A stretch of 6,313 nt of DNA, from the IMG/VR virus record IMGVR_UViG_2700989519_000005; one strand, 5' to 3'. The translations under genes were made by a program, and so were the position numbers. This document shows positions 3,966 through 6,232 of this stretch, one piece after another. Below the pieces are notes generated by a model. It saw nothing but the letters and a program-made list of their open reading frames with translations. It searched no databases and had not been told where the DNA came from. This stretch comes from a virus. Taxonomy: Duplodnaviria > Heunggongvirae > Uroviricota > Caudoviricetes. Each line of letters begins with the position of its first letter. Within the stretch, counting starts at the first letter, position 1.

Positions 3966-5357
3966 TCAAAAGAAACGCTCCATCTTACTGCTGTCAGTTC
4001 GTTTATTACTGTATCTGCGCGGATTGCCGGGCTTCATGGGAGTGGAAAGCACCCGTGCACTTTCCTGGTCCACAGGCAGAAAATGTCCGTTATAAAAACG
4101 CCGGTAAATCGTTCCCAGAGAACCGTTACGTTGTTTCGTGATATTGATTTCTGCGATGCCCCTGGCCTGCGTATCCGGGTTGTACACTTCATCCCTGTAA
4201 AGCATCAGAATGATGTCTGCATCCGCCTCTATTTCTCCGGAATTTTTCAGGTCTGAGTTCATGGGACGTTTATTGGGTCTGGACTCCACACCGCGGGAGA
4301 GCTGGCTCAGCGCAATCAACGGAAAACCACCGGATTTTGCCAGGCCTTTAAGCCCCTTTGAGATTTCACCCACGGCAAGGTCATGACGCCCCGTGGTTCG
4401 GGTTTTTATCAGCCCGAGATAATCAACCACCACCAGCGCCGTTTCCGGATATTTAATCAGGTGGTGTTTCGTTGTTGCGCATATCTCATCAATGGCCAGG
4501 TTCGCCTGGTCCACCATCCAGATATTGCGCCCGGTCATCCGCCCCACCCCTTGTGAGAAACGCGTCCAGTCTTCATCTTCAAAGTGAGCCACAGATTTCA
4601 GGCGTGATACTGGCATCCCTCCAGCCGCAGACACCATACGTTCACCAATCTGGATGTTCGCCATCTCCATGGTGAACAGAAGCACACCATGCCCCTGCTC
4701 AGTCACCTTGTCGATGATGTCCAGCGCAAGTTCGGTTTTCCCCATCGAAGGACGGGCGGCAATGAATACCAGGTCTCCGGGCTCCATACCGCCTGTTTTT
4801 GCGTCCAGTTCATCAATACCGGTCATCAACGTCCTGGATTTCTCCAGCCCCTGATTCCGGCATTCAACACGCTCAACCACTTCCGGAAGCACATCATCAA
4901 TATGTACCGGCTGAATGACGCCCTTTCCTGTCGACAGTGTGACCATCATGTTCTGCGCATCCTTCAGGGCATCTTCAGCTGCTTCACAGGTATGCGCATC
5001 ACGTAATTTCTGCAGCGCCTCATTCAGTGTTTTTTCTGCATCGCGCAGTGCGGCATTGCGCCGCAACGCTGCAACATAGTGCTCCAGTGAAGACTTCACC
5101 CAGGTTTTACGCCCGGTATCAGTAATCACCGGGGCAAGTTCCGGCATCTCATTACACAACAGCACGGGGTCAATCACTCCTGAAACACGGGCCTGTCTGC
5201 AGATGCCTGTATAGATATCCTGATACGCTCGTACAGAAAAAACGTCCGCTGGCAGTGTGGCCAGAATATCCATCACTTCAGGATCTGCTCCGCGCAGAAA
5301 GAACGCGCCGATGACAGCGCCTTCAAGGTCATCGTTACGCCATACTGGAGTTGTCAT
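3966..5357 (-). CDS. Replicative DNA helicase, DnaB family (phage-encoded)
   Basis: 463 aa with Walker A FIAARPSMGKTELALDI, a DnaB-type C-terminal RecA-like domain (LVVVDYLGLI..., ALSQLSRGVESRPNKRPMNSDLK.., ADADIILMLYRDEVY) and an N-terminal helical domain. Start ATG 5355-5357 overlaps the upstream gene's stop (ATGA). Confidence 0.9.
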   Translation of the reverse strand: MTTPVWRNDDLEGAVIGAFFLRGADPEVMDILATLPADVFSVRAYQDIYTGICRQARVSGVIDPVLLCNEMPELAPVITDTGRKTWVKSSLEHYVAALRRNAALRDAEKTLNEALQKLRDAHTCEAAEDALKDAQNMMVTLSTGKGVIQPVHIDDVLPEVVERVECRNQGLEKSRTLMTGIDELDAKTGGMEPGDLVFIAARPSMGKTELALDIIDKVTEQGHGVLLFTMEMANIQIGERMVSAAGGMPVSRLKSVAHFEDEDWTRFSQGVGRMTGRNIWMVDQANLAIDEICATTKHHLIKYPETALVVVDYLGLIKTRTTGRHDLAVGEISKGLKGLAKSGGFPLIALSQLSRGVESRPNKRPMNSDLKNSGEIEADADIILMLYRDEVYNPDTQARGIAEINITKQRNGSLGTIYRRFYNGHFLPVDQESARVLSTPMKPGNPRRYSNKRTDSSKMERFF

Positions 5358-6232
5358 GCAGCCACACCTCTGATACGAGAACGGTAACTGGGCCAGTTAA
5401 ACGACAACCAGTTGCGTCCCCCGTCTGTGATCCTGTCGGCAATTCGGGGACTGATGAACGCCCACAACTCTTCCGGTGAGAGGTTACTGATCAGAATGGT
5501 GGGCAAGATACTTTCGTACCTGGCGTTGATAATTTCCTGCAAAATAGCCATTTCAGCCGCGCTGCCAAACTGAACGCCAACTTCGTCGATGATCAGCAAA
5601 TCCATTGACGCATAACGCTCAATAACTTCATCCGCTGTTTTTTCGCTGTCATTCCGCCAGCAATTTTTCACAGCACGGGTAAGGCGCATCACGTCGGTGA
5701 TCTCCACACTGGCCAGATAGTTACGGATGATGTGTTTTGCCATAGCCACAGCCAGATGATTTTTTCCGGTACCACAACTGCCGGTCATAACAAGACTGGT
5801 ACCGTTCTCCAGCATATCTGGCCAGTTCTCCGCATAGCGGCGACAGGCCGCAAGATTTCTGGCTGCGCCAGGATTAACCTCCAGATAATTATCAAACTCG
5901 CAGTCCCGAAAACGCAGGGCAATTCCGGCGTTATCAGTCAGCTCTTCCGCCTTGATGGACGACAGCTCCATGGTCAAATCGTTGGCCTCAGCGATTAAGC
6001 AGTCAGGGCAGCATGAAATTTCTTCTCTGTCCTCGCCATTACGATCGCTCCACACCAGTATATGCGTGTGATATTCGCCATGTTTTTCGCAATATCCGCG
6101 ACCTTCACGCATCAGGCAGGAACGATAAGGCCATGGCTTTTCGCCCTTCTGAGCAAATGCAATCTCTGCCCGTAACTCATCCATTCGCGCCTGTAGTCTT
6201 TTTTGTTGTTCACGCAGGTTAAACGTCATCAT
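5354..6232 (-). CDS. DnaC-like AAA+ helicase loader with a Cys/His-rich N-terminal domain
   Basis: The C-terminal half has Walker A GSCGTGKNHLAVAMA, Walker B LLIIDEVGVQ and the DnaC-like tail SFNWPSYRSR (compare E. coli DnaC GTGKNHLAAAI ... IDEIGVQ ... FNWDSYRSR). The N-terminus carries CEKHGEYHTH...SCCPDC. Most likely start is ATG 6230-6232 with SD GAGGTG 6 nt upstream; the track's first codon at 6239-6241 is GTG inside that SD. Confidence 0.85.
   Translation of the reverse strand: MMTFNLREQQKRLQARMDELRAEIAFAQKGEKPWPYRSCLMREGRGYCEKHGEYHTHILVWSDRNGEDREEISCCPDCLIAEANDLTMELSSIKAEELTDNAGIALRFRDCEFDNYLEVNPGAARNLAACRRYAENWPDMLENGTSLVMTGSCGTGKNHLAVAMAKHIIRNYLASVEITDVMRLTRAVKNCWRNDSEKTADEVIERYASMDLLIIDEVGVQFGSAAEMAILQEIINARYESILPTILISNLSPEELWAFISPRIADRITDGGRNWLSFNWPSYRSRIRGVAA

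What the first reader, a model, noticed from the sequence alone, without database searches (positions are those of the whole stretch)
5354..6232. DnaC-type loader with a Cys/His-cluster N-terminal domain in place of the host DnaC N-terminus
The C-terminal AAA+ half is clearly DnaC-like, down to the FNW-SYRSR tail. The N-terminal roughly 100 residues carry CEKHGEYHTH and SCCPDC motifs, suggestive of a zinc-binding module, unlike the DnaB-binding N-terminus of host DnaC. The partner helicase is phage-encoded rather than the host enzyme, so this may be a self-contained loader-helicase pair with altered partner specificity.
Basis: partly seen in the sequence, partly recalled or inferred. Interest (0 to 1): 0.35.

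Follow-up and report, generated by a model that had tools for sequence, protein, structure and literature searches.

The report
Prophage DnaC-type loader with zinc-ribbon N-terminus
This is an intact prophage gene for a DnaC-family helicase loader whose N-terminus carries a strictly conserved four-residue (Cys-His-Cys-Cys) probable zinc site, and this feature is common in phage loaders whether or not the phage has its own helicase, so it is an uncharacterised but ordinary module.

Summary
Window 5354-6232 (minus strand) encodes a 292-aa protein. Residues ~84-290 are DnaC-like, with intact ATPase motifs and the FNWxSYRSR tail. Residues 1-83 have no counterpart in E. coli DnaC.

They are invariant in 118/118 Enterobacterales homologues whose N-termini are only 28-44% identical. 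They are also invariant across 14 loaders (22-59% identical) from phages of seven host genera. The AlphaFold2 model places them as two knuckles on a three-stranded sheet. No Pfam, NCBIfam, PDB or BFVD match exists for the domain, and DnaI_N was tested and not met.

A DnaB-like helicase gene follows with a 4-nt ATGA overlap in all 95 family loci, so the loader-helicase pair is real. The "altered partner specificity" reading is not supported. The same module occurs in loaders of phages with no DnaB gene at all, checked on two whole genomes, and in an O-loader prophage clade (101/101 with the motif).

Here IS911 has also removed the upstream initiator gene.

Verdict: an uncharacterised zinc-type docking module on a known kind of loader. 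Low to moderate interest.

The parts
5354..6232 (-). CDS of the 292-aa DnaC-type helicase loader (ATG 6230-6232, stop TGA 5354-5356)
   Evidence: PHROG 50 'DnaC-like helicase loader', E 1.4e-89. 96% identical to phage phiP27 L18.
6239..6244 (-). Shine-Dalgarno GAGGTG, 8 nt upstream of the ATG. The GTG at 6241 listed as an alternative start lies inside it.
   Evidence: Read from the sequence.
6146..6223 (-). N-terminal long helix, residues 4-29. Its presence and length vary between loader clades.
   Evidence: AlphaFold2 models, pLDDT about 90. Absent or shorter in distant loaders.
5999..6115 (-). Putative zinc module, residues 40-78. It is a three-stranded sheet (40-48, 52-62, 68-72) with knuckle 1 C48-x2-H51-G52 (codons 6089-6091 and 6080-6082) and knuckle 2 C75-P76-x-C78 (codons 6008-6010 and 5999-6001).
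   Evidence: Ligands invariant in 118/118, 101/101 in the sister clade and 14/14 divergent phage loaders. pLDDT 87-94. Metal binding itself is inferred.
5933..6007 (-). Long linker helix, residues 76-100. It starts at knuckle 2 and leads into the AAA+ domain. The alignment to E. coli DnaC begins inside it, at residue 84-88.
5363..5920 (-). DnaC/DnaI-clade AAA+ ATPase domain, residues ~105-290. Walker A GSCGTGKN 151-158 (5759-5782). Walker B LLIIDE 212-217 (5582-5599). Sensor-1 N250. Arg finger R267 (5432-5434). Tail FNWPSYRSR 278-286 (5375-5401).
   Evidence: Pfam PF01695, 57.8 bits. Alignment to E. coli DnaC. Foldseek against 6qem_G, TM 0.72 on the target. Catalytic residues invariant.
5354..5357 (-). 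ATGA overlap: the loader's stop codon overlaps the helicase's start codon (translational coupling).
   Evidence: The same -4 overlap is present in 10 diverged loci.
3966..5357 (-). DnaB-family replicative helicase (463 aa), the likely partner of the loader.
   Evidence: Pfam DnaB_C 3e-72 and DnaB N-terminal domain 2.4e-5. Best PDB match is E. coli DnaB, E 1.7e-62. Adjacent to the loader in 95/95 loci.
6253..6313 (.). Terminal repeat of an IS911/ISEc52-type IS3-family element (TGAAGTGG...). It abuts 20 nt upstream of the loader ATG and replaces the initiator gene found in relatives.
   Evidence: Relatives carry a 330-aa initiator-position gene here.

Best explanation
The ORF is the helicase loader of a phiP27-type lambdoid prophage replication module, whose gene order is initiator, loader, DnaB-like helicase.

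Shown: residues ~105-290 are a DnaC/DnaI-clade AAA+ ATPase with every catalytic residue intact. Residues 40-78 carry four residues (C48, H51, C75, C78) that are as conserved as the ATPase active site. The model arranges them as two knuckles, CxxHG in a beta-hairpin turn and CPxC at the N-cap of the linker helix.

Inferred: these four residues bind one structural Zn2+ that holds together a small domain with little hydrophobic core. That domain, together with the flanking helices, is the helicase-docking element. It occupies the position taken by the helical N-terminus of E. coli DnaC and by the zinc-binding N-domain of B. subtilis DnaI. The loader would dock on the C-terminal (RecA) tier of the co-translated phage DnaB-like hexamer. 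The AAA+ domains would assemble with ATP into a spiral that cracks the ring open and binds ssDNA at the origin opened by the initiator, and ATP hydrolysis would release the loader.

The zinc module is a general, probably ancestral, feature of phage DnaC/DnaI-type loaders. It is not an adaptation to a phage-encoded helicase, and the zinc-less E. coli DnaC type is the derived state. In this particular genome the initiator gene has been cut away by IS911, so the pair is probably a non-replicating prophage remnant.
For: DnaC-type AAA+ domain.

Intact Walker A/B, sensor-1, Arg finger and sensor-2 equivalents (K157, D216/E217, N250, R267, R284), invariant.

Ligand conservation despite 28-39% N-terminal identity. 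Conservation across Klebsiella, Pseudomonas, Vibrio, Ralstonia, Acinetobacter, Streptococcus, Bacillus and Lactobacillus phage loaders.

Confident model with sheet plus knuckles plus helix.

The N-domains of DnaC/DnaI loaders are the helicase-binding part, and DnaI-N needs Zn (ligands C67, C70, H84, C101): PMC2673437, PMC1636449 and PMC4887207.

Conserved 4-nt overlap with the helicase gene.

The module is present in loaders of helicase-less phages.

DnaC/DnaI arose by domestication of phage loaders: PMC8216460.

IS911 junction.
Against: No metal-binding measurement exists, and I had no model coordinates to check ligand geometry. No solved or predicted structure resembles the N-domain: Foldseek best E is 0.19 against PDB and 0.007 against BFVD. 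Homology to DnaI-N is not detectable: PF07319 gives no hit while the DnaI control scores 2.5e-33, and hhalign probability is below 1%. Helicase binding by this domain is therefore argued from position and analogy only. The near-identical helicase paired with a 34%-identical N-domain (L084) shows that either few conserved residues make the contact or the contact lies elsewhere. The phage survey is a sample of about 24 loaders, not a census.
Confidence: 0.7

Rival explanations
1. One reading: the Cys/His domain replaced a host-type DnaB-binding N-terminus in order to redirect the loader to the phage-encoded helicase, giving a self-contained pair with altered partner specificity.
For: The 292-aa clade is always followed by its own DnaB-like gene (95/95 loci). 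Pseudomonas F10 also combines the module with a DnaB gene. The host-type N-terminus in Gifsy-2 and PhiR5_2 occurs in modules without a helicase.
Against: The same module occurs on loaders of phages lacking any DnaB gene: RCIP0098 and R20L on whole genomes, the O-loader prophage clade with 101/101 carrying the motif, and eight other phages checked within their fetched flanks. The module spans Gram-negative and Gram-positive phages, so it predates any such switch. In the L084 mosaic the helicase is 94-95% identical while the loader N-domain is 34% identical.
Confidence: 0.12
2. The zinc module is not the helicase-docking surface. Instead it recruits the loader-helicase complex to the origin by binding the initiator protein or DNA, much as lambda P contacts O.
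For: The loader gene always directly follows an initiator-type gene: Phage_rep_O, HTH_36/DnaD_N, LvrA-C-related or DnaD-like. Zinc ribbons often bind nucleic acid. Weak Foldseek matches are to the RadD and RNA polymerase III zinc ribbons.
Against: The initiators next to the loaders belong to several unrelated families, while the module's ligand positions stay constant. That fits a conserved partner, the DnaB RecA tier, better than it fits the initiator. In both characterised relatives (DnaC and DnaI) the N-domain binds the helicase (PMC2673437, PMC4887207).
Confidence: 0.13
3. The protein is an IstB-like transposition helper of an IS21-type element and not a replication protein. Pfam's best hit is IstB_IS21 and the gene lies next to an IS.
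For: PF01695 IstB_IS21 at 57.8 bits, above its cut-off. IS911-type sequence lies 20 nt upstream.
Against: NCBIfam IS21_help_AAA scores 69.9 against a cut-off of 200, while the DnaC model gives the best E-value, 1.3e-38. The best PDB and Foldseek matches are E. coli DnaC. There is no IstA transposase. The neighbouring IS is IS3-family and absent from relatives, where the gene sits in a cI-cro-initiator-loader-helicase-Q prophage layout.
Confidence: 0.02
4. The Cys/His residues do not bind metal. They could form disulfides or be conserved for packing alone, leaving the N-terminus a plain helical/beta adaptor.
For: There are no experimental data, and no zinc-finger Pfam family is matched.
Against: The CxxHG and CPxC spacing, with Gly and Pro at the classic knuckle positions, is invariant over very deep divergence. 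Substitution is only by another ligand-type pattern, CxxC...CxC, in some Firmicute phages. As a replication protein it presumably works in the reducing cytoplasm, which disfavours disulfides; this last point is reasoning from general knowledge, not a tool result.
Confidence: 0.03

Closest known systems
Enterobacteria phage phiP27 L18 'putative replication protein DnaC' / PHROG 50 DnaC-like helicase loader
   Same: The same protein family: 96% amino-acid identity over all 292 residues and the same loader-helicase-Q gene order. PHROG 50 E 1.4e-89.
   Different: The deposited phiP27 CDS starts 40 codons late (252 aa). In phiP27 the upstream L17 initiator-position gene is present, whereas here it is replaced by IS911.
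E. coli DnaC (PDB 6QEL/6QEM)
   Same: The AAA+ domain, the linker helix and the C-terminal FNWxSYRSR tail. About 34% identity over about 200 residues. Walker A/B, Arg-finger and sensor residues are conserved.
   Different: DnaC residues 1-41 (helical, no Cys/His pairs) have no counterpart, and the query has 83 residues with a CxxH...CPxC module instead. It scores 132.9 against a cut-off of 357 for the NCBIfam DnaC equivalog. It is encoded next to its own helicase.
B. subtilis DnaI (N-domain solution structure, PMC2673437; DnaB-DnaI complex 4M4W)
   Same: Works alike in outline: a DnaC/DnaI-clade AAA+ domain preceded by a small N-terminal domain tied together by one Zn with 3 Cys + 1 His, and that domain is the helicase-interaction domain. 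A global profile alignment anchored on the AAA+ domain puts C48 on DnaI C67 and C75-P76 on DnaI C101-P102. This is suggestive only.
   Different: The ligand order differs: CxxH...CxxC here, against CxxC...H...C in DnaI. DnaI-N has four helices and two strands, whereas the model here has one helix, three strands and a linker helix. There is no PF07319 hit, hhalign probability is below 1%, and DnaI does not appear in the Foldseek results for the N-domain.
Sister clade of Enterobacterales prophage loaders (~284 aa; Klebsiella phage RCIP0098, Stx1_121427, E. coli/Morganella prophages)
   Same: The same CEKHG...CPxC module (101/101) and a DnaC-type AAA+ domain, 42-47% identical to the query.
   Different: It sits directly after a lambda-O-type initiator in the place of lambda P, with no helicase gene. 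It therefore presumably loads host DnaB.
Staphylococcus phage 77 ORF013
   Same: A phage-encoded DnaC/DnaI-family loader (PMC4887207).
   Different: It has been shown to bind the host helicase, and no phage helicase is involved. A related Staphylococcus phage loader sampled here has a CxxC...CxC pattern instead of CxxH...CPxC.
IstB of IS21-family elements (PDB 5BQ5, 8Q3W)
   Same: The same AAA+ clade. The Pfam IstB_IS21 model is the best Pfam hit, and Foldseek gives E about 1e-8.
   Different: There is no IstA partner and no zinc module is known for IstB. It scores below the NCBIfam IstB cut-off and sits in a prophage replication context.

Membership tests
DnaC/DnaI-clade AAA+ helicase loaders | AAA+ fold with Walker A GxxGxGK[ST/N], Walker B DE, sensor-1 Asn, Arg finger and a sensor-2 Arg | tested here: met
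   G151-K157-N158, D216-E217, N250, R267 and R284 align to the DnaC motif positions and are invariant. Foldseek's top hits are DnaC, DnaI and IstB.
DnaC/DnaI-clade AAA+ helicase loaders | An N-terminal, non-AAA+ domain that binds the DnaB-family helicase | not testable with these tools
   An N-terminal domain of 83-100 residues exists and is confidently modelled. Binding is inferred from position and from gene coupling.
DnaC/DnaI-clade AAA+ helicase loaders | Genomic association with a replication initiator and/or a DnaB-family helicase | tested here: met
   The helicase lies immediately downstream in 95/95 loci. An initiator-type gene lies upstream in relatives but is missing in this window.
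E. coli-type DnaC (NCBIfam NF005931 equivalog) | Full-length match above the curated cut-off, including the helical DnaB-binding N-terminus (residues 1-45) | tested here: not met
   132.9 bits against a cut-off of 357, with only 85-289 aligned. hhalign covers DnaC 42-243 only. The Gifsy-2 and PhiR5_2 loaders do have the DnaC-type N-terminus, for contrast.
DnaI (Firmicute primosomal loader) | DnaI_N domain (PF07319) with the Zn site C67/C70/H84/C101 | tested here: not met
   No PF07319 hit for the query or for seven other phage N-termini, while the B. subtilis DnaI control scores 2.5e-33. hhalign probability 0.2-0.5%. NCBIfam DnaI scores 43 bits against a cut-off of 228.
IstB (IS21 helper ATPase) | Score above the NCBIfam IS21_help_AAA cut-off, and pairing with an IstA transposase | tested here: not met
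   69.9 bits against a cut-off of 200. No istA is found in the window or in related loci.
Zinc ribbon / treble-clef type zinc fingers | Two ligand pairs (CxxC/H knuckles), one in a beta-hairpin turn and one in a second turn or helix N-cap, conserved across homologues | tested here: met
   C48-x2-H51-G52 lies between strands 40-48 and 52-62, and C75-P76-x-C78 lies at the start of helix 76-100. Both pairs are invariant.
Zinc ribbon / treble-clef type zinc fingers | Actual binding of Zn2+ with tetrahedral geometry | not testable with these tools
   No coordinates or metal data were available. Foldseek gives only insignificant 32-33-residue matches to the RadD and RPC10 ribbons.

The most novel reading that the evidence does not exclude
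The CxxH(G)...CPxC module is the ancestral helicase-docking domain of the whole phage-derived DnaC/DnaI superfamily. It is still present in phage loaders of both Proteobacteria and Firmicutes. The DnaI-N zinc site would be a rearranged descendant (C48 = DnaI C67, C75-P76 = DnaI C101-P102), and E. coli-type DnaC would have lost the metal site after, or shortly before, domestication. If true, one small undescribed zinc domain would be the common handle by which very different phages seize DnaB-family helicases, whether host or their own.
Probability: 0.3. Interest if true: 0.5.

Novelty: new variant of a known kind. Interest (0 to 1): 0.28.

Why it matters
Helicase loading is the committed step of replication, and phages compete with the host for DnaB. 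Only two N-terminal docking solutions are structurally known for AAA+ loaders: the DnaC helical hairpin and the DnaI zinc domain.

The module found here is absent from Pfam and NCBIfam. Sequence and Foldseek searches found no counterpart in the PDB. It is nevertheless conserved as strictly as the ATPase site in phage loaders from at least eight host genera.

Characterising it would fill a gap in how phage DnaC-type loaders recognise helicases, and in how bacterial DnaC and DnaI evolved from phage genes. For this particular locus the practical message is modest: it is a correctly recognisable, already catalogued prophage loader in an IS-disrupted remnant. Public annotations under-describe it as 'ATP-binding protein', or truncate its start in phiP27.

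Tried and rejected
- **N-domain homologue search.** Searching with the N-terminal 119 residues returned only short fragments of the same family, so it said nothing about distribution.
- **Exhaustive phmmer of residues 1-110 against 1.84 billion representatives.** It gave 13 hits. Most are fragments or members of the same family; one (P0145) is an unrelated repetitive protein matched over only 37 residues. A single sequence is too weak to see the module elsewhere. The wider distribution emerged only from tblastn with the full protein followed by reading the N-termini.
- **Family and structure searches on the N-domain alone.** Pfam and NCBIfam gave nothing. A PDB profile search with A2 gave nothing. 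Foldseek on the N-domain model gave no significant match against PDB or BFVD.
- **Homology to DnaI-N.** Tested with Pfam and hhalign and not supported. I therefore do not file the domain under DnaI_N.
- **IstB / IS21 helper reading.** Rejected on scores and context.
- **Genome-contig scan with A2.** It returned only 9 loci because the pattern was too strict. Viral contigs returned only relatives at 86% identity or more.
- **Literature.** The two papers I read on 'Eru' replication types of Stx phages do not discuss this loader. My six literature searches surfaced no paper on a zinc domain in proteobacterial phage DnaC-like proteins.
- **DnaB 'determinant residue' (PMC8216460).** I considered mapping it onto the phage helicase but dropped it because I could not fix the residue correspondence reliably.
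Full report
**What is at the coordinates**

The window is a piece of an E. coli/Shigella lambdoid prophage related to the Stx2e phage phiP27. The identity is 94% to phiP27 and 99.8% to several E. coli chromosomes. The loader and helicase proteins are 100% identical in E. coli ECMA0423 and Shigella flexneri SFBU1023, and the shared DNA is 99.85% identical.

Reading the minus strand from right to left, the window holds:
- an IS911-type end (6253-6313);
- the ORF of the finding (5354-6232);
- a DnaB-family helicase gene (3966-5357);
- an 85-aa ORF, NinH and a Q antiterminator;
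- four tRNA genes;
- holin, a 209-aa ORF of unknown function, endolysin and Rz/Rz1;
- a truncated IS600-like orfA.

The ORF starts at the ATG at 6230-6232, which is preceded by GAGGTG. RefSeq calls the same 292-aa product 'ATP-binding protein'.

**C-terminal half**

- Pfam gives IstB_IS21 (the general DnaC/IstB AAA+ model) over residues 140-256.
- NCBIfam's best match is the DnaC model over 85-289, far below the equivalog cut-off.
- PHROG 50 'DnaC-like helicase loader' matches at E 1.4e-89.
- Among solved structures the best sequence match is E. coli DnaC at E 5e-31, query 88-289 against DnaC 46-242, including the FNWxSYRSR tail. A profile comparison gives the same span with probability 99.9%.
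- A full-length AlphaFold2 model (pLDDT 86, pTM 0.78) retrieves E. coli DnaC, Aquifex DnaC, DnaI, IstB and DnaA in that order.
- The Walker A lysine K157, Walker B D216/E217, sensor-1 N250, the arginine R267 aligned to the DnaC Arg finger, and R284 are invariant in the family.

This half is a catalytically competent DnaC-type AAA+ module.

**N-terminal part**

Nothing in E. coli DnaC residues 1-41 aligns with query residues 1-83. I aligned 117 full-length homologues, at 53-97% overall identity, from many Enterobacterales genera. Their N-terminal 100 residues are only 28-44% identical to the query.

| Residue | Conservation |
|---|---|
| C48, H51, C75, C78 | 118/118 |
| G52, P76 | nearly invariant |
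| C39 | Trp in most |
| H55, H57, C74 | variable |

The real pattern is therefore C-x2-H-G ...

Both AlphaFold2 models give a helix at 4-29, strands at 40-48, 52-62 and 68-72, and a long helix at 76-100, with pLDDT 87-94 in that region. C48/H51 then lie in the turn of the first hairpin. C75/C78 lie at the N-cap of the linker helix. That is the arrangement of a zinc ribbon or treble-clef knuckle pair. I had no coordinates, so the ligand geometry is inferred from secondary structure and not measured.

**Is it a known domain?**

- The N-terminal 119 residues hit no Pfam or NCBIfam family.
- A profile of the domain hits nothing in the PDB.
- Foldseek with the N-domain model finds nothing significant in the PDB (best E 0.19) or in BFVD (best E 0.007). 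Only 32-33-residue matches to the zinc ribbons of RadD and RPC10 appear, at E 0.4-0.8.

The obvious precedent is B. subtilis DnaI. Its N-domain is the helicase-interaction domain and binds one Zn through C67, C70, H84 and C101 (PMC2673437; PMC1636449). I tested membership directly. PF07319 (DnaI_N) is not matched by the query or by seven other phage N-termini, while the DnaI control scores 2.5e-33. hhalign gives a probability below 1%.

A global alignment anchored on the AAA+ domain does place C48 on DnaI C67 and C75-P76 on DnaI C101-P102, but with zero confidence in that stretch. I treat this as a lead only. The domain works like DnaI-N in outline but is not a demonstrable member of that family.

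**How widespread is the module?**

tblastn of the whole protein against 50,697 phage records found 335 records. Many distant hits begin to align at query residue 44-48, exactly at the first knuckle. I extracted 18 further distinct loaders.

| N-terminal type | Phage loaders |
|---|---|
| C-x2-H ... C-(P)-x-C | Klebsiella RCIP0098; Stx1_121427; Pseudomonas Skulduggery (two tandem copies), phiPSA1 and F10; Vibrio R20L; Ralstonia YL1; Acinetobacter R3177; Streptococcus satellite Javan593; Bacillus A16R4; Lactobacillus LL-H |
| C-x2-C ... C-x-C | Staphylococcus phiST9-A; Bacillus IEBH; Faecalibacterium Brigit |
| No ligand pairs | Gifsy-2 and PhiR5_2 (clearly host-DnaC-like N-termini); Vibrio 2.095.B; Listeria B054; Lactococcus BM13 |

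In an alignment of 14 of these loaders (22-59% identity), the invariant columns apart from the initiator Met are:
- C48, H51, C75 and C78;
- the Walker A region (G151, G154, G156, K157, H159, L160);
- the Walker B region (L213, D216, G219);
- N250, R267 and R284.

A profile search of the 5.8-billion-protein collection also brought up a second large Enterobacterales clade of about 284 aa. All 101 members carry the motif with a 22-24-residue spacer.

**Does the module go with a phage helicase?**

In the query's own clade the helicase gene follows the loader in 95/95 loci. In ten loci whose loaders are only 54-57% identical to the query overall, the 4-nt ATGA overlap is kept. The loader-helicase pair is therefore real and probably translationally coupled. 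F10 also has a DnaB gene next door.

The sister clade, however, sits directly after a lambda-O-type initiator with no helicase gene. None of the other module-bearing loaders sampled has a DnaB homologue within the flanks fetched. The complete genomes of Klebsiella phage RCIP0098 and Vibrio phage R20L contain no DnaB-family gene at all (tblastn). Those loaders presumably act on the host helicase, as shown experimentally for the Staphylococcus phage 77 loader (PMC4887207).

The zinc-less, DnaC-type N-terminus also occurs in helicase-less modules, namely Gifsy-2 and PhiR5_2. In locus L084 a helicase 94-95% identical to the window's is paired with a loader whose N-domain is only 34% identical. The module therefore does not track partner identity.

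**Mechanism proposed**

Shown: the protein has DnaC-type ATPase architecture, a strictly conserved four-ligand site in a small beta-rich domain, and gene coupling with a DnaB-family helicase.

Inferred:
- One structural Zn stabilises the domain.
- The domain and its flanking helices dock on the RecA tier of the helicase hexamer, as the N-domains of DnaC and DnaI do.
- The AAA+ domains form the ATP-dependent spiral that opens the ring and binds origin ssDNA.
- ATP hydrolysis releases the loader.

The main alternative is that the module contacts the initiator or DNA. This is weakened by the fact that the neighbouring initiators belong to several unrelated families while the module is constant.

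**State of this copy**

In relatives a 330-aa initiator-position gene ends 10 nt before the loader. In the window, homology stops 20 nt upstream of the ATG, and an IS911/ISEc52-type terminal repeat follows. The Shigella and E. coli genomes that match the window at 99.85% DNA identity show the same junction with the IS in the opposite orientation. The left end of the window is also an IS. The pair is thus intact as ORFs but has lost its initiator, and it very probably belongs to a defective prophage.

**Novelty and score**

The gene itself has been known since the phiP27 genome was deposited, where it is annotated 'putative replication protein DnaC'. The idea of a zinc-binding helicase-interaction domain on a DnaC/DnaI-family loader is established for DnaI. 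What I did not find described, in Pfam, NCBIfam, PDB, BFVD or the papers my six literature searches surfaced, is this particular CxxH...CPxC module and its breadth among phage loaders.

That makes it a new variant of a known kind, of low to moderate interest. The most novel reading left open is that the module is the ancestral docking domain of the phage-derived DnaC/DnaI superfamily (PMC8216460 for the domestication background).

Noticed in passing
window 6253-6313, with the junction at 6252/6253: An IS911/ISEc52-type IS3-family terminal repeat (TGAAGTGG...) lies 20 nt upstream of the loader ATG and replaces the initiator gene present in relatives. S. flexneri SFBU1023 and E. coli ECMA0423 have the opposite end of the IS at the same junction, which suggests an IS-mediated inversion.
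   Followed up: partly
window 77-331 (-): A truncated IS3-family orfA, which looks IS600-like from memory, abuts the Rz/Rz1 spanin genes (393-812 and 383-577). The prophage fragment is therefore bounded by IS sequences on both sides.
   Followed up: partly
window 2534-2844 (-): Four tandem tRNA genes (Gly-TCC, Thr-TGT, Arg-TCT and a CAT-anticodon tRNA) lie between the Q antiterminator and the holin. This is the position where Stx phages carry their tRNAs and toxin genes.
   Followed up: no
window 1393-2022 (-): A 209-aa ORF sits between the holin and the endolysin. It has no Pfam hit and matches only PHROG 1085 (unknown function). It is an unusual insertion inside a lysis cassette.
   Followed up: partly
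L001 (phiP27 NC_003356) 5389-6147, compared with homology extending to 6267: The deposited phiP27 loader CDS is 252 aa and starts about 40 codons too late. PHROG 22964 (77 positions, unknown function) appears to be made of orphaned N-terminal fragments of this same protein.
   Followed up: partly
L097 (Pseudomonas phage Skulduggery) 2842-3795: This loader carries two tandem copies of the CxxHG...CPxC module (residues 8-34 and 56-81).
   Followed up: no
L084 372-2659: A mosaic replication module: the helicase is 94-95% identical to the window's, but the loader is only 57% identical overall and 34% in the N-domain. This implies recombination at or near the loader/helicase boundary.
   Followed up: partly
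L114, L117 and L113 (Staphylococcus phiST9-A, Bacillus IEBH, Faecalibacterium Brigit loaders): These loaders carry a different N-terminal Cys pattern, CxxC...CxC. It may be a second type of zinc module in Firmicute phage loaders.
   Followed up: no
L088 406-2265 (S. flexneri, beyond the IS911): A 619-aa ORF has a primase/Toprim-like N-terminal part and what looks like an intein (Hint/LAGLIDADG-like) segment, and it is truncated by the IS. The assignment is by eye only. It lies outside the window.
   Followed up: no
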